64,000 nucleotides of DNA from Escherichia coli (lineage in GTDB: Bacteria > Pseudomonadota > Gammaproteobacteria > Enterobacterales > Enterobacteriaceae): assembly GCF_003790525.1 (NCBI RefSeq), contig NZ_CP033635.1; one strand, given 5' to 3'. Below the pieces are notes generated by a model that was not told the DNA's origin, ran no database searches, and saw only the letters and a list, made by a program, of their open reading frames with translations. Shown piece by piece: positions 8,139-25,013 of the stretch. Numbering within the stretch: the stretch's first letter is position 1; every line of letters begins with the position of its first letter. The position numbers were made by a program, and so were the translations under genes.

Positions 8139-8546
8139 TCAGTTCCTATCCTTCCAGTTGCCCTCCTGCCCCCCCTCCCTGCTGTATACCCCGGTACCAC
8201 AACTCGGGCAGCACTTTTCCCCCTCATAATTTTCGTCACACATCACACAAAACCACTTTCTCACCTTCACCGTATAATCCGGAACCGTCATACCCTGCAG
8301 ATGCAAACGACGGGCCTCTTTCTCTGCCGGGTCAAGCCAGGTGCATCGCAGCAGGATTTTCTCAGCGACAGTCATCTGGTCATGTTCAAACCACGGTGGT
8401 TGTCCGTCATTGCCCCGCTGAAGTGTTAACGGGCATCCACAGGACACACAGCACAAAACGTCCTGGCGGTTGTGCTTCGCTGCTTCTTTCGCCGTAACAA
8501 AATGGCCTTTGCTGTCATTCGCCATATAACAGTTCAGAATTCGCAT
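8139..8546 (-). CDS. Cys-rich zinc-ribbon protein, hypothetical (paralog of upstream gene)
   Basis: CxxC pairs and a PWFEH motif shared with the adjacent gene; aggagg RBS just upstream of the ATG at 8546; start uncertain. Confidence 0.45.
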   Translation of the reverse strand: MRILNCYMANDSKGHFVTAKEAAKHNRQDVLCCVSCGCPLTLQRGNDGQPPWFEHDQMTVAEKILLRCTWLDPAEKEARRLHLQGMTVPDYTVKVRKWFCVMCDENYEGEKCCPSCGTGVYSREGGQEGNWKDRN

Positions 8547-8941
8547 ATTTCCTCCTGAGTTGTCCGGGGAATACTGAATCCTCCGGTCTGGCAGTGTGTG
8601 CAGTACCGCTCCCCATAATAATCGTGGTGACATTGTCTGCAGTGCCAGCTGGCTTTACGCACCACGGGTAAGGCATCCGGTACGAATTGCTGCAGACGTT
8701 TAATCAACTGTATTTCTCTGCGCTCCGGCCTGACATAAGGGCACTGTTGACCGTGCTCTGTCAGCCTGTCGTCAGTGTGTTCAAACCAGGGAAGTTCAGT
8801 GTCGTATTGCGGATGGTATCTGAGTGCACTGCCACACAAGTGGCAGGTGTAGTTAGCATAAGGTGCGGCCTGTGCAGTACGGGCGCCCGTCAGACGTCCG
8901 TTGCCATCAAGAGCGATAAAGGATTTTGCGTACATAGTCAT
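8534..8941 (-). CDS. Cys-rich zinc-ribbon protein, hypothetical
   Basis: 135-aa ORF with CHLCG, CRQCH, CTHCQ pairs and a PWFEH motif. Confidence 0.5.
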   Translation of the reverse strand: MTMYAKSFIALDGNGRLTGARTAQAAPYANYTCHLCGSALRYHPQYDTELPWFEHTDDRLTEHGQQCPYVRPERREIQLIKRLQQFVPDALPVVRKASWHCRQCHHDYYGERYCTHCQTGGFSIPRTTQEEICEF

Positions 8942-9194
8942 ATTCCTCAGCCGCCAGACGACACGCAGGCAACAGCCGTCCCGGTACGGGCAGCGTGGTC
9001 AGGGTGTGAATGGCGGTTCAGTTAAAATCTGGACTGGAGTTTGGGTAAAGCAGGCTGGTTGCTGTTACAGCACTGTGGTTGTCACACAATGGAACACTGA
9101 CGTAAAAAACAGTCAGTGGGCGAGTGGATACATCGTTGCCGCCAGACAACAACCCATACTTTTGGTTTGCCGGGTATTGGCGCGCCAGTCGTGC

Positions 9195-9764
9195 TCAACT
9201 CCGGCTACAGCCAAAATTGCGCTCACCGGTGCAGTGAGCTTTGGTATGTTCCTTCGCCAGATAGTCAGCACGTTCCAGCACCTGCTGAAAGCCAGTGTCA
9301 TCATCGCGTTCCAGCCACACCGCCGGCCAGGCCGGAAAATGCACCAGCGTGGCATGGCACCCGACATCCACTCCCAGGGCACTGCACCACGCCTGTTTAA
9401 TCATCCCGGCCAGTGATCCCGGAGCACGGTAATCACCGGCACGACACCAGGTATCCCGGTTAACCAGCAGCATCAGGTGATAGTGTTTTTTACCTTTGCA
9501 CTCCCCAAACTCCCGGGCCCAGACGTAATGCAGGGTTGTGGGATGCACGCGTTTACCTTCCCGATGCTTACGTTTCTGGTAAGCGTCGATTCGGGCTTTC
9601 AGGGCATTGATGAAGCGGGATATCACAGCTGCGTCCGTTGCTGCCGGTACATCCGGGAAACGCAGGTCAACCCGCAATGCCGTCAGGCGGGGATGAACAT
9701 TCAGTGCGTGCCGCACCGTCTCACGAATACGTTGCTGCCAGAAGGGGTTGTATTTGTAGGTCAT
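9195..9764 (-). CDS. YfjJ/YagK-family (inovirus Gp2-like) prophage protein
   Basis: N-terminus MTYKYNPFWQQRIRETV... recalled as the YfjJ/YagK family of CP4-type prophages; ATG at 9764 preceded by ggag; an upstream GTG at 9800 is an alternative start. Confidence 0.6.
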   Translation of the reverse strand: MTYKYNPFWQQRIRETVRHALNVHPRLTALRVDLRFPDVPAATDAAVISRFINALKARIDAYQKRKHREGKRVHPTTLHYVWAREFGECKGKKHYHLMLLVNRDTWCRAGDYRAPGSLAGMIKQAWCSALGVDVGCHATLVHFPAWPAVWLERDDDTGFQQVLERADYLAKEHTKAHCTGERNFGCSRS

Positions 9765-9963
9765 GGTTAAATCTCCGTATGGTTCATACGGAATAGCCAC
9801 GTCGTAAAAAATGCGCAGAGTCCCTGAAGTGACCTCCGGCAGGACACTGTCTCAGGCACTCTGTGATAACCCGAACGGTCGTCTCCGGACTGACGGTTGA
9901 ATTTTCAGCGTTGTTTTTTTAATGTAAAAAACCGGTTACGGGTAAGGCTGTGAGGAGGGAGTG

Positions 9964-18361: not shown

Positions 18362-20758
18362 ATGCACGAAAAGAACATCGCCCTGCTTTGTGATGAAGCC
18401 GACCGACTTTTGCAACTGAACATTAATCTGCTCCGGCAAATGGTTGAGGAGCCAGATGTGTTATCTGACAGTAAGAACGAAAACAGACTGCTTTTTGATA
18501 AACAGAAAGCACTGAAAAGAATTGAGGAGCTGGAGGGCGAACAAATCAAAACCGCCCGCAGGGAGATGGTGCTGGCTGTTGTCGGCACGATGAAAGCAGG
18601 CAAATCAACCACCATCAACGCCATTGTGGGGCAGGAAATTCTGCCTAACCGTAACCGCCCCATGACCTCTGTACCGACGCTCATCCGCCACGTTCCCGGA
18701 AAAACTGAGCCGGTTCTCCATCTGGAACATATTCAGCCTGTCCGCAATTTATTAATCACACTGCAGGAAAAACTCGCCACCCCGGCAGGACAGCAGGTCG
18801 CACAGACCCTGCAGCAAACCGGGGATACCCGCGAACTGCTGGATATTCTGACGGATGATGGCTGGCTCAAAAATGAATACCACGGGGAGGAGGAAATCTT
18901 TACCGGACTGGCATCGTTAAACGATCTGGTTCGTCTTGCTGCGGCAATGGGGACTGAATTTCCTTTTGATGAATACGCAGAAGTGCAGAAACTGCCGGTG
19001 ATCGACGTGGAATTCAGCCATCTGGTGGGGATGGATGCATGCCAGGGAACACTCACACTGCTGGATACCCCCGGCCCTAATGAGGCCGGACAACCGCAGA
19101 TGGAAGTGATGATGCGGGATCAACTGCAGAAAGCCTCTGCGGTTCTGGCTGTGATGGATTACACCCAGATGAACTCAAAAGCGGATGAAGACGTCCGTAA
19201 AGAGCTTAATGCCATTGCTGACGTATCAGCCGGCCGCCTGTTTGTACTGGTCAATAAATTTGATGAGAAAGACCGCAATGGCGATGGGGCAGATGCCGTA
19301 CGCCAGAAAGTTCCGGCAATGCTGAACAGCGATGTGCTGCCCGCCTCCCGCGTTTATCCCGGATCCTCACGCCAGGCATACCTGGCTAACCGTGCGCTTC
19401 ATGAGTTACGGAAAAACGGAACCCTTCCTGTTGATGAAGCCTGGGTCGATGATTTTATCAGAGGTGCCTTCGGTTGCATGAAAAAAGAATACGTCTGTAA
19501 AGACAGTGAACTGGCAACTGAAGGGGCGACAGACCTGTGGGAAGGCTCACTTATCGATCAACTGATAACGGAAGTCATACAGAGCTCACATTCCAGAGCT
19601 GCGGCACTGGCGGTTGACTCTGCCGCCGCAAAACTGATGCAGAATGCAGAAAATATCAGTGAATACCTGTTGTTACGCCATCAGGGGCTACAGCAAAGCA
19701 TTCAGTCACTGCAGTCGCATATCACCAGCCTGCTTGCGGATATCCGGGAAATCGCGGACTGTCAGGAGCAGATGACCACTGATGTCAGAATGGCCATGGA
19801 GGAGATCGATACTAAAACCCGGGAATTACTGACGGGGGTCTGCACCTCACTGGAAGAGGAGCTGAATGACTATTTCAGAAGCGGTAAACGCAAAGAACAG
19901 CAAATGCTGGAGGAAGAAGACGCAGAACAACGAAGGTCTCAGTCCGGATTATGGGGGAAAATTTCTCAATGGTCCGGTATCAACAACCAGGGCCGGGAGG
20001 ATTACAGGAAACGAGATTTTGCCCCGGACAGCCCCGAAATAAAATTCAGTGATCGCAGGGAAGCCCTTGAACTGATGACGCAAATCGAATCGACCGTGAC
20101 CAGCCTGCACCGTGAGGCTGAAGCACAGTTCCGGCCTGAGCTGGAGAAAATCGTCAGCGGGATTGAAACAGGTTTTCGTGGCACGGCCCTGTACGCCACA
20201 GAAAACATTGCCGGTCGCATCAATGCCCGCCTGGAGGATGAGGGCTTTACCGTAAAAATCAGTTTTCCGGCAGTCAGCCAGTTACAGACCCGGCTCGCGG
20301 TAAAAATAAATCTGAGTGCGCTTATGGAGGAAAGAACGGAGACCGTCACCCGTCGCCGTCGGCAGAGTGGCGTATGGGGAACCGTTTGTCGATGGTTTGG
20401 CACCAGTGACCTGGGCTGGGAAAACTATGACGAGGATGTGAGTCGCAGCGTGATCAATATCAACAAGGTCAGAGAGGAAGTTATGTCACTGACCCGGGCA
20501 TATTTCGGGGAGCTGCAGGCATCCATTGAGCAGGATATTAACCAGCCCGTCCGCCAGGAAATCGATGCCTTTTTCTGCGCATTCAGGGAGAAAGTTGAAC
20601 AACTGCGTAACACGCTGATTCAGAGCTCTGAAGATCATAAACGCGATCAGCAGGCGCAGGAACGGCTTACCGGGCGACTTCAGGCATTAAATGAAAGGGT
20701 TCCTGAGCTCATTACTGACAGTAAGGCGCTGAGGGAAGAGCTGGAGACAATGCTGTGA
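18362..20758 (+). CDS. Bacterial dynamin-like GTPase, CrfC/YjdA-like
   Basis: 798 aa; G1 GTMKAGKST, G3 DTPGPNE, G4 NKFD; N-terminal block REMVLAVVGTMKAGKSTTINAIVGQEILPNRNRPMT matches E. coli CrfC as recalled; long helical C-terminal stalk; RBS aggaagg. Confidence 0.9.
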   Translation: MHEKNIALLCDEADRLLQLNINLLRQMVEEPDVLSDSKNENRLLFDKQKALKRIEELEGEQIKTARREMVLAVVGTMKAGKSTTINAIVGQEILPNRNRPMTSVPTLIRHVPGKTEPVLHLEHIQPVRNLLITLQEKLATPAGQQVAQTLQQTGDTRELLDILTDDGWLKNEYHGEEEIFTGLASLNDLVRLAAAMGTEFPFDEYAEVQKLPVIDVEFSHLVGMDACQGTLTLLDTPGPNEAGQPQMEVMMRDQLQKASAVLAVMDYTQMNSKADEDVRKELNAIADVSAGRLFVLVNKFDEKDRNGDGADAVRQKVPAMLNSDVLPASRVYPGSSRQAYLANRALHELRKNGTLPVDEAWVDDFIRGAFGCMKKEYVCKDSELATEGATDLWEGSLIDQLITEVIQSSHSRAAALAVDSAAAKLMQNAENISEYLLLRHQGLQQSIQSLQSHITSLLADIREIADCQEQMTTDVRMAMEEIDTKTRELLTGVCTSLEEELNDYFRSGKRKEQQMLEEEDAEQRRSQSGLWGKISQWSGINNQGREDYRKRDFAPDSPEIKFSDRREALELMTQIESTVTSLHREAEAQFRPELEKIVSGIETGFRGTALYATENIAGRINARLEDEGFTVKISFPAVSQLQTRLAVKINLSALMEERTETVTRRRRQSGVWGTVCRWFGTSDLGWENYDEDVSRSVININKVREEVMSLTRAYFGELQASIEQDINQPVRQEIDAFFCAFREKVEQLRNTLIQSSEDHKRDQQAQERLTGRLQALNERVPELITDSKALREELETML

Positions 20759-21660
20759 CTTCACCATTTATTCAACAAATTGCTGATAACCGGGTATGTC
20801 AGGTACTCACCTGTCTTCCTGAAAAATTTGTGGTTGATTTCGCAAACGGAATCGATGTTGCACAGGAGCATATCCGCACGGCCGGAGAGCGCACGTTCTT
20901 CCGGCGTTTAAAAGAGGGGCTGACCGGCGAAGGCGCTGCACGGCAGAATGCCATCAATGCGTCGCTTGCACAGGGCGTTGAGGCGTCCCTGCGCTGGCTG
21001 ACGGAGATGACAACGTCACTTGCCACCACAAACTACGCGATTACCCGGGTAAACGACAGGGTCAGTTCACTGGTCAGTGATACAGCCAGGCTGGCGCATT
21101 ATTCCGCAGATACGCGGGAGCAGTTACTCACCCTGGCCGATCAGGTTCACCATAAACTGAATCATCTTGAAGAAAAACTCCACCGTGTTGACCAGGTTCA
21201 GCGGGCGCAGTTACATCTTGAGCAGATATTCTCATGGTGGAGCGCCGGGCGATATGCGTCATTTTCCCCTGCCGGACGTTGTTATGTGGCACTTGAAGAG
21301 CTTCGCTGGGGCGCGTTTGGTGATGTGATACGTCAGAGCGAAACAGGCCAGGTTAACCAGCTACTGGATATTCTCAGACATAAAGCATTAACGCAGATGG
21401 CACAGGAGAGTGGCGGTAGTGCAACCGTGCGTCTGAACACTCTGGACTGGCTTGGTGGTCAGGGCCGGGAGCAGGCAGATAACGAGTGGCATGACGCGAT
21501 TAACTGGCTGGGAGACTGGTGCAGTGAAGAGCAGCATCCGGTGATCTGGTCAACCACGCAGGCTGCAGAACACTTACCGGTTCGCATGCCTCGCCTCTGC
21601 TCTGCAGAACGCCTCTCTGAAAGTATGGTCGATGAAATATTTCAGAAGGGGGCTGCATGA
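20755..21660 (+). CDS. Dynamin partner protein (YjcZ-like, by synteny with crfC-yjcZ)
   Basis: 301-aa ORF; GTG start overlaps the dynamin stop (GTGA); mostly helical; family assignment rests on position, not recalled sequence. Confidence 0.7.
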   Translation: MTSPFIQQIADNRVCQVLTCLPEKFVVDFANGIDVAQEHIRTAGERTFFRRLKEGLTGEGAARQNAINASLAQGVEASLRWLTEMTTSLATTNYAITRVNDRVSSLVSDTARLAHYSADTREQLLTLADQVHHKLNHLEEKLHRVDQVQRAQLHLEQIFSWWSAGRYASFSPAGRCYVALEELRWGAFGDVIRQSETGQVNQLLDILRHKALTQMAQESGGSATVRLNTLDWLGGQGREQADNEWHDAINWLGDWCSEEQHPVIWSTTQAAEHLPVRMPRLCSAERLSESMVDEIFQKGAA

Positions 21661-22727
21661 GTACAGAAATGAAAACGGGGCTGGTGCTGTCCGGTGGCGG
21701 GGCGGTGGGCGCTTATCAGGCGGGAGTGGTTAAGGCACTGGCAGAGTGTGGTACACAGATCAGCATGGTTTCAGGGGCCAGCATTGGCGCATTCAATGGT
21801 GCCATTATCGCGGCCTCTACCGATCTGTCAGAAGCTGCCGTACGCCTGGAGGCGCTCTGGGATCATCTGGGGAATAATCAGGTGCTGTCGGTAAACAGAT
21901 TGGTTTACTTTTCATTGCTGAAAAAATTGTTCCAGGCAATGAACCTCTGCCAGATCCCCGGACGTGCAGGAGCACTGCTTACGACGCTTCTTCGCCATAT
22001 ATCGACAATCAACGGGTTTGACAATCTGATGGCTCAGCCGTTGTTGTCAGATGAGCCCCTGACAGCGCTGATGGATCATTATCTTGATACTGATGCTCTG
22101 GCAGACGGGCTACCGCTGTATGTGTCGCTGTACCCCACAGAAGGGGGCATGCAGGATATTATTGACTGCATTCGTGCTGAACTGGGTGTCGGAACCACGA
22201 AAAACGCCGTTTTTCAGCATATCCAGAGCCTGCCCCGCGGACAGCAGAAAGAGGCTCTGCTTGCGTCAGCCGCGCTGCCCCTGCTGTTCCGTCCCCGTGA
22301 GGTTCAGGGGACAATGTTCGGTGATGGTGGTATGGGAGGATGGCGAAATATGCAGGGAAATACCCCTGTGACGCCTCTGGTCGATGCCGGATGCAATATG
22401 GTGATTGTGACGCATCTGAGTGACGGTTCTTTATGGGATCGCCAGGCTTTTCCGGACACCACAATCCTTGAGATCCGTCCCCGGAAAAGGCTGAAATATG
22501 CAGGTGATGGTGGCAACAGCGGCGGTCTGCTCAGTTTTACATCGGCACATACCGACGCCTGGCGTCAGCAGGGCTATGAAGACACGATGCTGGCGATGGA
22601 GCATATCCGGAAACCGCTGGCAGCACGTCAGGCACTGACCCGGTCAGAGGCGGTATTGCAGAAAAGCCTGGATATAACGGAAGAGGCAGATTTGGCACTG
22701 AGAAACGCGATGGCCCGGATTAAATAA
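21657..22727 (+). CDS. Patatin-like phospholipase
   Basis: 356 aa; Gly-rich oxyanion SGGGAVGAYQAG, lipase GxSxG as GASIG, catalytic Asp in FGDGGM; ATG overlaps the upstream stop (ATGA). Confidence 0.85.
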   Translation: MSTEMKTGLVLSGGGAVGAYQAGVVKALAECGTQISMVSGASIGAFNGAIIAASTDLSEAAVRLEALWDHLGNNQVLSVNRLVYFSLLKKLFQAMNLCQIPGRAGALLTTLLRHISTINGFDNLMAQPLLSDEPLTALMDHYLDTDALADGLPLYVSLYPTEGGMQDIIDCIRAELGVGTTKNAVFQHIQSLPRGQQKEALLASAALPLLFRPREVQGTMFGDGGMGGWRNMQGNTPVTPLVDAGCNMVIVTHLSDGSLWDRQAFPDTTILEIRPRKRLKYAGDGGNSGGLLSFTSAHTDAWRQQGYEDTMLAMEHIRKPLAARQALTRSEAVLQKSLDITEEADLALRNAMARIK

Positions 22728-22743
22728 AGACGCCCCAAAGAAA

Positions 22744-22770
22744 CGCCACCGCCTGTGGTGGTGTTTTTCC
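22744..22770 (+). terminator. Putative rho-independent terminator after the patatin gene
   Basis: ccacc-gcctgt-ggtgg hairpin followed by tgttttt, 17 bp after the patatin stop. Confidence 0.5.
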
Positions 22771-23057
22771 TGTCTGGTGTTATTGAAAATATTTTCAGAT
22801 ATATATTACCTGAGAGAAAGTTTTACCCCTCACCTGTCAATTCACTCACTGGAAATTTAATTATGAAATTACCTGTAAAGTTATTAATGAGCCTTATATC
22901 TCTGGTCAGCGTTATTGCACGTGCCGGGGAATATAAAAATTACAGCCGGGATGAAATAAAATACTGGCGATATACATCATACAAGGGGGGGAAACTTCCG
23001 GAAGGTTTCACTGATGAGAAATTTTCCAGCGCCATTTACAACGGAAGAATATTTACA

Positions 23058-23546
23058 ATGAAACGTTTACATACCCTTATGTTATTTCTGGCGGTTCTGT
23101 TCACGGGCTTTAACTTTAACGCAGAAGCGGCTACCGTAAAACAAGCTCTTAGTTGTAACCCGGAAGCCTGGGCTGAACAACCTGGAGCGTGTCCATCAAC
23201 GTACGAGTTGTACGAAGGTGACGCTACCTACAAAGCCGCTATCGACAAAGCATTAAAACCGGTCGGACTGAGCGGCATGTTCGGTAAAGGCGGCTATATG
23301 GATGGCCCTGGTGGAGGTATCACGCCAGTAAACATTAACGGTACAGTCTGGTTCCAGGGCGACGGTTGCAAAGCCAATACCTGCGGCTGGGACTTTATCG
23401 TAACACTCTATAACCCAAAAACCCATGAAGTTGTTGGCTACCGTTACTTTGGTTTAGATGACCCGGCCTACCTGGTTTGGTTCGGTGAAATTGGCGTGCA
23501 TGAATTCGCGTATCTGGTGAAAAACTACGTAGCTGCGGTTAACTAA
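23058..23546 (+). CDS. Ivy-like (inhibitor of vertebrate lysozyme family) periplasmic protein, divergent
   Basis: Signal peptide MKRLHTLMLFLAVLFTGFNFNAEA; KAA...KGG...CKANTCGWDFIV aligns with Ivy KAA...KGG...CKPHDCGSQRIAV as recalled; an in-frame upstream ATG at 22863 also precedes a hydrophobic stretch. Confidence 0.5.
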   Translation: MKRLHTLMLFLAVLFTGFNFNAEAATVKQALSCNPEAWAEQPGACPSTYELYEGDATYKAAIDKALKPVGLSGMFGKGGYMDGPGGGITPVNINGTVWFQGDGCKANTCGWDFIVTLYNPKTHEVVGYRYFGLDDPAYLVWFGEIGVHEFAYLVKNYVAAVN

Positions 23547-23561
23547 TTTAAGGAGTCTATC

Positions 23562-23972
23562 ATGAAAACTTTTATCAAAACTTTACTCGTTGCTGTAACT
23601 ATTCTGTTCTCTGTCTTCGCTACTGCGAAACAAGTAAAACTGCCAAATAACATCAAATACGTTAATACTACAGAAGCGTTTTCCTGTACCGAAATTGACG
23701 GTATGAATTGCCAGACAAAGAATCAGTTCAACTATAAAGATAACAGCTATGTTTTCGTGCTTGAGCGTGGTGGTGCCTGGTGCTACGACTACACTGTCTC
23801 GGTAGTTAACCTGAAAACCGGGAAAGCACAAATGATTGAATACGGGGACAATCAACTGTGCTCAGGTAGCAACAAACCGTTCTTCGAAATCAAAAATGGC
23901 GTACCGACGGTAGGAGTCATCGACACATCCGGAAAACCTGTCGTTGTAGCCCAGGACAAACTTAAAATCTAA
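23562..23972 (+). CDS. Small secreted Cys-containing protein, hypothetical
   Basis: 136 aa; signal peptide ending ATA-KQ; four Cys; strong aaggag RBS; 15 bp after the Ivy-like gene. Confidence 0.6.
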   Translation: MKTFIKTLLVAVTILFSVFATAKQVKLPNNIKYVNTTEAFSCTEIDGMNCQTKNQFNYKDNSYVFVLERGGAWCYDYTVSVVNLKTGKAQMIEYGDNQLCSGSNKPFFEIKNGVPTVGVIDTSGKPVVVAQDKLKI

Positions 23973-24112
23973 GGAGTAAACCATGCGTTTCTCTGCACAT
24001 TATTAATATCAAAGGTAAATACAGCCCCAGCCATTGTTACCGGAAAGCCGCTTAATGCGTGGCTCGCCAGTGAAAGGCCTCTCAGACAATAAACCTTATT
24101 CATTTCACCCGT

Positions 24113-24148
24113 CAGGCCGCGTCTTCTCCGGGAGACGCGGCTTTTTTC
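24113..24148 (+). terminator. Rho-independent terminator
   Basis: gccgcgtcttctcc / ggagacgcggc hairpin followed by ttttttc. Confidence 0.6.
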
Positions 24149-24192
24149 ATTTATTGCACCAGTAAATCTTAACCACCGATAAGGAGCAAAGT

Positions 24193-25013
24193 ATGCGATT
24201 AGCCAGTCGTTTTGGTTATGCTGCAAACCAGATACGCCGTGACCGTCCGCTGACACATGAAGAACTGATACGCCATGTACCCAGTATTTTTGGGGAAGAC
24301 CGGCACATCTCCCGCAGTGAACGGTATGCGTACATTCCCACCATTACCGTCCTGGAAAATCTGCAGCGGGAAGGCTTTCAGCCGTTCTTCGCCTGCCAGA
24401 CCCGTGTGCGCGACCCGGGCCGCCGGGGATACACAAAACACATGCTGCGTCTGCGGCGGGCCGGAGAGATAAACGGAGAACATGTCCCTGAAATTATTCT
24501 GCTCAACTCTCATGACGGTACCTCCAGCTACCAGATGCTGCCGGGTTACTTCAGGTTCGTCTGCCAGAACGGGTGCGTCTGTGGCCAGTCTCTGGGGAAG
24601 TGCGTGTTCCACACCGGGGAAATGTAGTGGAGAAAGTTATCGAAGGGGCTTACGAGGTGGTGGGCGTGTTTGACCGGATAGAGGAGAAGCGTGATGCCAT
24701 GCAGTCGCTGGTCCTGCCGCCACCGGCACGCCAGGCGCTGGCACAGGCGGCACTGACTTACCGTTATGGTGACGAACATCAGCCCGTCACCACCGCCGAC
24801 ATTCTGACGCCGCGACGCCGGGAGGATTACGGTAAGGACCTGTGGAGCGCATATCAGACCATCCAGGAGAATATGCTGAAAGGCGGGATTTCCGGTCGCA
24901 GTGCCAGAGGAAAACGTATCCATACCCGGGCCATTCACAGCATTGATACCGACATTAAGCTCAATCGCGCATTGTGGGTGATGGCAGAAACGATGCTGGA
25001 GAGCCTGCGCTGA
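24193..25013 (+). pseudogene. DUF932 (YfjQ-like) prophage protein, frameshifted
   Basis: N-terminal part (24193-24627) and C-terminal part (24573-25013) both match YfjQ as recalled but lie in different frames; break near 24590-24625. Confidence 0.75.

What the first reader, a model, noticed from the sequence alone, without database searches (positions are those of the whole stretch)
22863..23972. Ivy-like periplasmic protein with altered loop motif, paired with a small secreted Cys protein, next to the candidate defence operon
The 23058-23546 product has a signal peptide and a CKANTCG loop aligning with the CKPHDCG lysozyme-inserting loop of Ivy; the substitution suggests altered target specificity. 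It is followed 15 bp later by a 136-aa secreted protein with four Cys and a strong RBS. The Ivy-like frame is also open from an upstream ATG at 22863 that precedes another hydrophobic stretch, so there are two possible signal-like N-termini. These could be inhibitors of phage or host lytic enzymes, or immunity proteins.
Basis: partly seen in the sequence, partly recalled or inferred. Interest (0 to 1): 0.5.

Follow-up and report, generated by a model that had tools for sequence, protein, structure and literature searches.

The report
Divergent Ivy-fold periplasmic protein pair
An E. coli island carries a secreted protein with the fold of the lysozyme inhibitor Ivy but a changed inhibitory loop, plus a small secreted partner; relatives of both occur in giant phages, and a 2024 preprint already links the gene to resistance against phage T7.

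Summary

- **Loop:** CKANTC sits where Ivy has CKPHDC, so the histidine position is not kept.
- **Prior report:** preprint 10.1101/2024.04.20.590424 already describes this protein (Hypo_04657, "CKANTC"). Its knock-down restores T7 plating on E. coli O121.

New here:
- The upstream ATG at 22863 belongs to the leftover 5' end of a deleted 180-aa secreted-protein gene. The annotated 227-aa protein is therefore a chimera, and the real start is 23058.
- The preprint's guide RNA binds inside that remnant, so it should silence both genes.
- The 136-aa partner belongs to phrog_8968, a family of four-cysteine secreted proteins. It lies in a cassette conserved in Seoulvirus giant phages.
- The closest divergent Ivy-like homologues sit inside that cassette in an uncatalogued giant phage.

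The most likely function is a periplasmic blocker of a phage-borne peptidoglycan-cleaving enzyme. No binding or inhibition has been tested.

The parts
22747..22763 (+). Terminator-like hairpin followed by a T run, just after the patatin gene stop. It separates the pair from the dynamin/RdcB/patatin operon.
   Evidence: 7 pairs, 5 G-C, TTTTTCC tail. The sequence is also conserved in L002.
22863..23057 (+). In-frame remnant (65 codons) of the 5' end of a 180-aa secreted-protein gene. It probably now serves as an untranslated or non-functional leader. PGAP annotation merges it with the next gene into a 227-aa protein (WP_000775500.1).
   Evidence: It aligns to the N-terminus of the intact 180-aa gene at L002:7098-7640, and a deletion of about 708 bp follows. 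Window vs L009 shows 0 synonymous and 7 non-synonymous changes, and the start codon is lost in L009. Divergent homologues of 160-161 aa lack it.
22927..22946 (.). Exact target of the CRISPRi guide used for 'hypo_04657' in preprint 10.1101/2024.04.20.590424. It lies upstream of both real genes.
   Evidence: Guide oligo from the preprint's supplement. There is a single exact match in the window.
23043..23047 (+). Shine-Dalgarno-like GGAAG, 10 nt before the ATG at 23058.
   Evidence: Read from the sequence. SD-like motifs also precede the same MKRL start in two unrelated upstream contexts, L002 (AAGGA) and L006 (AAGGAG).
23058..23546 (+). Ivy-fold periplasmic protein: 162-aa precursor, predicted mature form 138 aa, pI 4.8. 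It has four Cys, at positions 33, 45, 104 and 109.
23367..23384 (+). Codons of the Cys-bracketed loop CKANTC, the counterpart of Ivy's CKPHDC.
   Evidence: HMM alignments to 1gpq place it on CKPHDC. The two Cys are invariant in all 24 family members. In the model the loop lies between strands 72-80 and 88-95 of the mature chain.
23550..23555 (+). Strong Shine-Dalgarno AAGGAG for the partner gene.
   Evidence: Read from the sequence.
23562..23972 (+). 136-aa secreted four-Cys all-beta protein (mature form 114 aa, pI 8.35). It is a member of phrog_8968.
   Evidence: phrog_8968 at E 2.6e-45. Homologues of 35-37% identity occur in Seoulvirus giant phages. It is a paralogue of two neighbouring cassette families. 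No Pfam family and no matching solved fold were found. dN/dS is 0.09-0.21.
24114..24143 (+). Strong terminator-like hairpin (13 pairs) with a T run, ending the two-gene unit.

Best explanation
The unit is a two-gene operon for two exported proteins.

The first protein (23058-23546) is a divergent member of the Ivy superfamily. It most likely works as Ivy does. It sits in the periplasm and pushes a disulfide-locked beta-hairpin loop (CKANTC) into the sugar-binding cleft of an enzyme that cuts peptidoglycan glycan strands, blocking it. The histidine position of CKPHDC is not kept, and the nearest relatives are carried by a giant phage and by mobile islands. The preferred target is therefore probably not animal C-type lysozyme. 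It is more likely a phage-borne or element-borne muramidase or lytic transglycosylase, such as the enzymes virions use to pierce the wall. That would make the module a periplasmic exclusion device, analogous in logic to T4 Spackle.

The second protein is a basic four-Cys beta protein from the same phage cassette. Its role is unknown; it may be a second, independent binder.

Shown: gene boundaries, export signals by sequence rules, purifying selection, Ivy fold, loop position, phage and island distribution.

Reported by others: knock-down of the locus restores T7 plating.

Inferred: that it inhibits any enzyme, which enzyme, and which of the two genes causes the phenotype.
For: - Ivy fold with a clear gap to all other folds.
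- Homology through intermediates.
- A direct tblastn match at E 5e-10 to Klebsiella plasmid genes that PGAP names Ivy family.
- An invariant Cys-x4-Cys loop at a hairpin tip.
- Ivy inhibits by inserting a loop between antiparallel strands into the active site (PMC5608400, PMC7677548). Ivy proteins also inhibit lytic transglycosylases in vitro (PMC10139938, citing Clarke 2010).
- Homologues of 59-72% identity lie in a giant-phage genome that also encodes two SLT-domain proteins.
- Knock-down at 22927-22946 gives T7 EOP 1.0-1.5, against 0 for the control.
- T7 virions carry a lytic transglycosylase motif in gp16 (Moak and Molineux 2000, as listed in PMC8954989).
- T4 Spackle is a precedent for periplasmic inhibition of a virion lysozyme (PMC7677548).
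Against: - No binding or inhibition data exist.
- The histidine position of CKPHDC is changed (N here; H, N or D in close relatives), so the classical contact cannot be assumed.
- PhiA of Brucella is a cautionary case: it has an inhibitor-family fold, lacks the motif, and did not inhibit in vitro (PMC8334348).
- E. coli Ivy is only a weak inhibitor of MltA and MltB (PMC10139938).
- The CRISPRi phenotype is polar on both genes. It comes from a table where 18 of 26 knock-downs, including unrelated genes such as csgD, rclR and coaE, give EOP near 1, so specificity is doubtful.
- Neither protein matches a PADLOC defence model.
- The Ivy-like gene is broken in some lineages.
- The AF2 model rests on 8 sequences, and only one of five models was confident.
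Confidence: 0.45

Rival explanations
1. It is a classical host-defence factor. Like Ivy, it would inhibit animal (C-type or other) lysozymes, protecting E. coli in the gut or in tissues, and the loop change would only tune specificity.
For: It shares Ivy's fold, compartment and loop architecture. Some close relatives keep the histidine position (CKAHAC in P0014 and P0016), as do most distant relatives. The gene is present in about 43% of complete E. coli genomes, including many human isolates.
Against: The window protein has N at the histidine position, A in place of P, and T in place of D. Its closest relatives are in a phage, and the gene travels in a phage-derived cassette. The one reported phenotype concerns a phage.
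Confidence: 0.12
2. It controls or neutralises bacterial wall-cutting enzymes rather than phage ones. Candidates are the cell's own lytic transglycosylases, those of conjugation machines, or peptidoglycan-targeting toxins delivered by competitors, in which case it would be an orphan immunity protein. Any T7 effect would be an indirect result of an altered envelope.
For: Ivy and Ivyp proteins inhibit MltB in vitro (PMC10139938). The gene sits in arrays of exported proteins on mobile islands and plasmids, next to GTPase, DUF932 and antirestriction modules. The preprint itself suggested a surface-related role.
Against: There is no linked toxin or effector gene in the window or in related loci. 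E. coli Ivy is only a weak inhibitor of its own transglycosylases (PMC10139938). The cassette is conserved in lytic giant phages, which have no obvious need for immunity to bacterial toxins.
Confidence: 0.15
3. The fold is retained but the inhibitor function is lost or changed. The protein would bind something other than a glycan-cleaving enzyme, or act only with other cassette proteins. The T7 phenotype would then come from the partner gene or from an artefact of the screen.
For: The altered loop. The PhiA precedent (PMC8334348). The guide RNA sits upstream of both genes. Many unrelated knock-downs gave full rescue. The partner is intact in about 350 more genomes than the Ivy-like gene and survives where the Ivy-like gene is broken.
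Against: Strong purifying selection on the Ivy-like gene. The Cys-Lys...Cys-Gly-Trp frame of the loop is strictly conserved. The gene also persists without the partner.
Confidence: 0.2
4. The annotated 227-aa protein is the real product: a membrane-anchored Ivy domain with an N-terminal helical region, as drawn in the preprint.
For: The frame is open from 22863, and PGAP annotates it this way in thousands of genomes.
Against: The extension is a gene remnant with 0 synonymous and 7 non-synonymous changes. Its start codon is lost in L009 while the Ivy-like gene is intact. All divergent homologues start at MKRL behind their own ribosome-binding sites, with stop codons upstream. By standard membrane-topology rules (inference), a cleaved first signal followed by a second hydrophobic segment would leave the disulfide-bonded domain on the wrong side of the membrane.
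Confidence: 0.05

Closest known systems
Ivy (YkfE) of E. coli and Ivyp1/Ivyp2 of Pseudomonas aeruginosa (Pfam PF08816; PDB 1gpq, 1xs0, 1uuz, 4ps6)
   Different: Identity is only 17-22%, and the protein itself has no Pfam or NCBIfam hit. The loop is CKANTC rather than CKPHDC. It has an extra N-terminal Cys pair (C33, C45) that is conserved across this subfamily; from my own knowledge, E. coli Ivy lacks this pair. It is carried on mobile islands and in a giant phage, in an operon with a second exported protein.
Hypo_04657 of E. coli O121 (preprint 10.1101/2024.04.20.590424)
   Same: It is the same protein. It has the same CKANTC loop, and the preprint's guide RNA matches the window exactly at 22927-22946. 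The preprint makes the same proposal, an inhibitor of phage lysozyme.
   Different: The preprint used the 227-aa annotation and read the extra part as a transmembrane domain. It did not note the downstream partner, the polarity of the knock-down, or the phage origin.
T4 Spackle (periplasmic superinfection-exclusion protein that inhibits the gp5 tail lysozyme; PMC7677548)
   Same: The proposed logic is the same: a small, disulfide-bonded periplasmic protein with phage-encoded relatives that blocks a virion wall-cutting enzyme.
   Different: The fold is unrelated (Spackle is a helical bundle that acts allosterically). No target is known here.
MliC/PliC, PliG and PliI lysozyme inhibitors, and Brucella PhiA
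   Same: All are periplasmic beta-rich proteins that insert a loop into a lysozyme active site. PhiA shows that motif-less members may not inhibit (PMC8334348).
phrog_8968 and its paralogues in Seoulvirus giant phages (for example vB_EcoM_Lh1B UGO35907-UGO35909)
   Same: The 136-aa partner is a member (E 2.6e-45). Gene order around it is conserved from the phages to the island.
   Different: All members are of unknown function. In the catalogued phages, the slot before the partner holds a four-Cys paralogue rather than an Ivy-like gene.

Membership tests
Ivy family (Pfam PF08816 / NCBIfam NF007443) | Ivy three-dimensional fold (antiparallel beta-sheet flanked by helices) | tested here: met
Ivy family (Pfam PF08816 / NCBIfam NF007443) | Direct match to the curated family profiles above threshold | tested here: not met
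   No Pfam hit even at E 10. NCBIfam NF007443 gives E 0.19 and 11.6 bits against a cut-off of 180. A phmmer search against PDB finds no Ivy hit.
Ivy family (Pfam PF08816 / NCBIfam NF007443) | Homology to Ivy through intermediate sequences | tested here: met
   A profile of the E. coli clade finds 47 relatives. All 18 distant members match Pfam Ivy at E<=0.001. The joint profile hits 1gpq at E 1.5e-13 and 1uuz at 1.7e-9. tblastn gives E 5e-10 to Klebsiella genes that PGAP names Ivy family.
Ivy family (Pfam PF08816 / NCBIfam NF007443) | Protruding loop closed by two Cys (C-x4-C) between antiparallel strands | tested here: met
   C104 and C109 are invariant in 24 of 24 sequences. The loop lies between strands 72-80 and 88-95 of the mature chain and aligns with CKPHDC. 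The disulfide itself was not verified.
Ivy family (Pfam PF08816 / NCBIfam NF007443) | Conserved CKPHDC motif with its histidine | tested here: not met
   The window has CKANTC. Close relatives have CKANAC, CKSNAC, CKSDAC or CKAHAC. Most distant relatives keep H at that position.
Ivy family (Pfam PF08816 / NCBIfam NF007443) | Periplasmic location through a cleavable Sec signal peptide | tested here: met
   Sequence rules only: MKR, then a hydrophobic core (score 2.5), then AEA|A. There is no lipobox. No dedicated predictor or experiment was available.
Ivy family (Pfam PF08816 / NCBIfam NF007443) | Inhibition of C-type lysozyme (or of lytic transglycosylase) | not testable with these tools
   This needs purified protein and enzyme assays.
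Spackle-type periplasmic superinfection exclusion | Homology or shared fold with T4 Spackle (helical bundle) | tested here: not met
   The fold is Ivy-like, not helical. The resemblance is in proposed logic only.
Spackle-type periplasmic superinfection exclusion | Encoded by a phage, and blocks the wall-cutting enzyme of incoming virions | tested here: inconclusive
   Relatives of 59-72% identity are encoded in a giant-phage genome. The blocking activity could not be tested. The T7 phenotype is from a polar knock-down.
Catalogued anti-phage defence systems (PADLOC-DB 2.0) | Match of either protein to a defence-system model | tested here: not met
   No family at E<=0.01 for either protein.
phrog_8968 (partner protein) | Full-length match to the family profile | tested here: met
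   E 2.6e-45, residues 1-131 on profile positions 1-133 of 135. The family's function is unknown.

The most novel reading that the evidence does not exclude
The Ivy-fold protein, possibly with its four-Cys partner, would be a phage-derived periplasmic exclusion module now fixed in about four in ten E. coli genomes. It would stop phages at the wall-penetration step by blocking virion-borne lytic transglycosylases or lysozymes, such as T7 gp16. The three variable loop residues would set which phages are excluded. This would be a defence acting outside the cytoplasm, of a kind absent from current defence catalogues.
Probability: 0.25. Interest if true: 0.7.

Novelty: new variant of a known kind. 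Interest (0 to 1): 0.45.

Why it matters
- If the protein blocks a phage wall-cutting enzyme, it would add a periplasmic, entry-stage layer to E. coli phage resistance. That layer would be common (about 43% of complete genomes, including O157:H7 and O121) and absent from defence catalogues.
- It would also give the Ivy family a function that explains why a "vertebrate lysozyme" inhibitor fold travels on phages and islands.
- Practically, the corrected gene model (start at 23058, a two-gene operon, the preprint's guide RNA upstream of both genes) changes how the published T7 phenotype should be read and followed up.
- If the protein turns out not to inhibit anything, the finding reduces to a divergent family member with a mis-annotated start.

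Tried and rejected
- **Direct sequence tests of Ivy membership.** Pfam, NCBIfam and phmmer against PDB gave nothing significant for the protein itself. Only the profile and fold routes worked.
- **Fusion idea.** I tested whether the 136-aa partner is related to the C-terminal four-Cys domain of two-domain Ivy relatives (P0088, P0089, P0120, Klebsiella WP_226650519.1), because the Cys spacing looked alike. BLASTP and hhalign reject it (probability 0.4-0.5%).
- **Diversifying selection on the loop.** The three inner loop residues vary (A/S, N/H/D, T/A). But about 60% of all columns vary in the 9-sequence clade alignment, and gene-wide dN/dS is low, so no claim is made.
- **Phage database search with the Ivy-like protein.** No match in 50,697 phage records. 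The phage link came only through metagenome scaffolds and a record filed as a plasmid.
- **Promoter.** No sigma-70 consensus site was found on the + strand between the terminator and 23058. The start of transcription remains unknown.
- **L014 hit.** A 53% hit on plasmid pZ0117EC0013-3 is a frameshifted pseudogene, not a divergent homologue.
- **L010 pseudogene.** Its "internal stop" lies in the Ivy-like part, not in the extension, so it says nothing about the start site.
- **Primary papers.** The original Ivy papers (PMC1847508, PMC2865275) are not held. Their content is cited second-hand.

Full report
**Where the finding sits**

The window is an E. coli genomic island of the CP4-44 type. The stretch 22700-24200 is 100% identical to many complete genomes, for example SMS-3-5. 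The local gene order is:
- GTPase, dynamin-family protein (18362-20758), RdcB-like protein (20755-21660), patatin-like phospholipase (21657-22727)
- the two genes of the finding
- DUF932, antirestriction, RadC/YeeS, DUF987 and CbeA genes

PGAP annotates the two genes as hypothetical proteins. It calls the first from the ATG at 22863 as a 227-aa protein (WP_000775500.1).

**Check of the observation**

- a 162-aa ORF at 23058-23546 with a signal-like N-terminus ending AEA|A
- the loop CKANTCG, with CKANTC encoded at 23367-23384
- a 15-nt gap, an AAGGAG, and a 136-aa ORF at 23562-23972 with a signal-like N-terminus and four Cys
- an open frame back to 22863 with a third signal-like segment

Terminator-like hairpins lie at 22747-22763 and 24114-24143. 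The pair is therefore a unit of its own, separate from the patatin operon. Both genes are under purifying selection: pairwise dN/dS is 0.12-0.33 for the first and 0.09-0.21 for the second.

**Is the first protein Ivy-like?**

Direct sequence tests fail:
- Pfam gives no hit.
- NCBIfam Ivy gives 11.6 bits against a cut-off of 180.
- phmmer against PDB finds nothing.
- A profile of the eight E. coli-clade sequences reaches Ivy (1gpq) only at E 1.4, although it aligns CKANAC with CKPHDC.

Structure and intermediate sequences settle the matter.
- An AlphaFold2 model of the mature chain has pLDDT 84 and pTM 0.81 for the best model, although the other four models were poorer. It shows two helices, five strands and a C-terminal helix.
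- A full HMMER scan of 1.8 billion representatives with the clade profile found 47 relatives.
- All 18 distant full-length relatives match Pfam Ivy on their own.
- The joint profile hits 1gpq at E 1.5e-13 and 1uuz at 1.7e-9.
- tblastn links the window protein directly (E 5e-10, 33% identity over 95% of its length) to Klebsiella plasmid genes that PGAP names "Ivy family c-type lysozyme inhibitor".

The protein is therefore a divergent offshoot of the Ivy superfamily, just beyond the reach of the curated profiles.

**How it differs from Ivy**

- The two loop Cys are invariant across the family, and Lys after the first Cys and Gly-Trp after the second are fixed within the E. coli clade.
- The three inner loop residues vary: CKANTC in the window, and CKANAC, CKSNAC, CKSDAC or CKAHAC in relatives of 58-92% identity.
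- Most distant relatives keep His at the fourth loop position.
- The subfamily also has a second, N-terminal Cys pair (C33, C45) that is conserved in at least 90% of members.

Ivy acts by inserting this loop into the lysozyme active site (PMC5608400, PMC7677548). The change makes the classical target doubtful, but it does not rule out the mechanism.

**Prior report**

A full-text search for CKPHDC found preprint 10.1101/2024.04.20.590424. It describes "Hypo_04657" of E. coli O121 as Ivy-like, with CKANTC in place of CKPHDC. It also proposes that the protein inhibits phage lysozyme.
- CRISPRi knock-down gave T7 efficiencies of plating of 1.09, 1.5 and 1.0, against 0 for the control.
- The guide sequence matches the window once, at 22927-22946.
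- That site is upstream of the start at 23058, so the block should silence both genes. It also implies that transcription starts upstream of 22927.
- In the same table, 18 of 26 knock-downs give values near 1, including unrelated genes such as csgD, rclR and coaE. I therefore treat the specificity with caution.

**The two N-termini**

The upstream segment 22863-23057 is not an alternative start. It is a gene remnant.
- In loci carrying homologue P0014 (L002-L005), an intact 180-aa secreted-protein gene lies between the patatin gene and the Ivy-like gene. Its N-terminus aligns with the window's 65 upstream codons.
- A DNA alignment shows a deletion of about 708 bp in the window. It removed the rest of that gene and a degraded copy of another cassette gene, and fused the frames.
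- Between the window and L009 the remnant has 0 synonymous and 7 non-synonymous differences. Between L009 and L010 it has 1 and 9.
- In L009 the remnant's start codon is gone while the Ivy-like gene is intact.
- Homologues of 58-81% identity are 160-161 aa long and start at MKRL. In L002 and L006 that start follows a ribosome-binding motif of its own, with stop codons upstream in frame.

By inference from membrane-topology rules, a product starting at 22863 would also strand the disulfide-bonded domain on the cytoplasmic side. The "transmembrane domain" drawn in the preprint is therefore most likely the two signal peptides of a chimeric ORF.

**The partner protein and its origin**

It is, however, a full-length member of phrog_8968 (E 2.6e-45). 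It also has homologues of 35-37% identity in about 40 giant phages of Salmonella, Erwinia and E. coli, in the genus Seoulvirus.
- In those phages it lies in a fixed cassette of exported proteins followed by an SMC-like gene, in the order 133, 163, 136, 127, 166 and 208 aa.
- The same cassette appears in metagenome scaffolds L006-L008 and in a 222-kb Enterobacter ludwigii record filed as a plasmid (L015).
- That record is really a giant phage. Its SMC protein is 71% identical to that of Erwinia phage Asesino. It also encodes an S80 prohead protease, a 2377-aa SLT-domain protein and a second, 228-aa SLT protein.
- In this phage the slot that normally holds the 163-aa gene holds the Ivy-like gene instead (59-72% identical to the window protein, with loops CKANAC and CKSDAC). 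The 136-aa gene follows 11-16 nt later.
- Profile comparison shows that the 136-, 127/129- and 163-aa proteins are paralogues with aligned Cys (probability 93-95%, E 4e-7 and 7e-8).

Taken together, the island module looks like a captured and partly decayed piece of a giant-phage cassette.

**Is the pairing obligatory?**

No.
- L002-L005 have the Ivy-like gene but no partner.
- L010 and L012 have a stop codon in the Ivy-like gene and an intact partner. L011 has the Ivy-like gene cut by an IS21 element and an intact partner.
- Among 5,426 complete E. coli genomes, 2,332 have the Ivy-like gene (1,933 at 80% coverage or more) and 2,365 have the partner (2,289 at 80% or more).
- The pair also occurs without the dynamin/patatin operon (L009, L006, L015).

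**Mechanism**

The best-supported reading is an exported Ivy-fold protein that blocks a glycan-cleaving wall enzyme with its disulfide-locked loop. The likely target is a phage-borne or element-borne enzyme rather than animal lysozyme. Supporting points:
- Ivy proteins also inhibit lytic transglycosylases in vitro (PMC10139938).
- The phage that carries the gene encodes two SLT-domain proteins.
- T7 virions carry a transglycosylase motif in gp16 (reference list of PMC8954989).
- T4 Spackle is a precedent for periplasmic inhibition of a virion lysozyme (PMC7677548).

All of this is inference, and no binding has been tested. Brucella PhiA, a motif-less member of another inhibitor family that failed to inhibit in vitro (PMC8334348), shows that the inference can fail. 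Rival readings are given separately: an animal-lysozyme inhibitor, a controller of bacterial enzymes or orphan immunity protein, a fold retained with a changed function, and the 227-aa anchored form.

**Verdict**

The protein fails the motif test for a classical Ivy, and its function is untested. The central idea is already in a preprint, which lowers its novelty. The corrected gene model, the polarity of the published knock-down, the partner's family and the giant-phage origin are the added value. Interest is moderate.

Noticed in passing
window 24193-25013 (about 24594): The DUF932 gene downstream of the pair has a 1-nt deletion (a missing G) relative to the intact 822-bp gene in strain KFu014. 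This splits it into two overlapping ORFs, 24193-24627 and 24573-25013.
   Followed up: yes
L015 / L019 (NZ_CP134650.1, Enterobacter ludwigii 'plasmid unnamed1', 222 kb): This record, filed as a non-mobilizable plasmid, looks like a giant-phage genome. Its SMC protein is 71% identical to that of Erwinia phage Asesino. It also has an S80 prohead protease, a 2377-aa SLT-domain protein, thymidylate synthase and RNase H, and most of its genes are hypothetical.
   Followed up: partly
window 18362-22727: The dynamin-family, RdcB/YjcZ-like and patatin-like genes have overlapping stop and start codons (20755/20758 and 21657/21660), so they look like one operon. PADLOC gives only weak matches (LeoBC E 8.6e-5, phospholipase effector E 4e-5), so it is not a catalogued defence system.
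   Followed up: partly
L016:4779-5852 (Klebsiella quasipneumoniae IncFIB conjugative plasmid); also P0088, P0089, P0120: These are two-domain Ivy relatives of about 280-357 aa: an N-terminal Ivy-like domain (loops CEQGNC, CEANNC, CEAHNC) joined to a C-terminal four-Cys domain of unknown type. The Klebsiella gene sits in a GTPase - WYL - ... - DUF905 module that resembles the E. coli island backbone.
   Followed up: partly
window 22863-23546 compared with L009 and L010: Divergence is mosaic. The remnant upstream of 23058 is almost identical between lineages (dS 0-0.025), while the adjoining Ivy-like gene differs strongly in the same genome pairs (dS 0.23-0.44). This suggests a recombination breakpoint near the start codon.
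   Followed up: partly
L002:7641-8000: The spacer between the 180-aa gene and the Ivy-like gene in P0014-type islands holds a decayed copy of the 128/133-aa cassette gene of the giant phages (it ends ...AELIGRITLNRSAE*). This is further evidence that the island array derives from the phage cassette.
   Followed up: partly
preprint 10.1101/2024.04.20.590424, supplementary Table S6: In the clonal validation, 18 of 26 knock-downs restore T7 plating on O121 to about 1, including genes with no obvious link to the envelope (csgD, rclR, coaE, gspA). A common cause, such as loss of O-antigen in the clones, has not been excluded.
   Followed up: no
window about 8139-9800 (from the annotation of the identical stretch in L013): Upstream in the island lie two zinc-ribbon proteins and an 'inovirus Gp2 family protein', flanked by several IS remnants (ISL3, IS150, IS66). 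I did not examine them.
   Followed up: no
H40 (NZ_CP074785.1) and the UniRef name of P0014: Some records label Ivy-like homologues or their neighbourhood 'DNA polymerase III subunit gamma/tau'. This looks like an annotation error.
   Followed up: no
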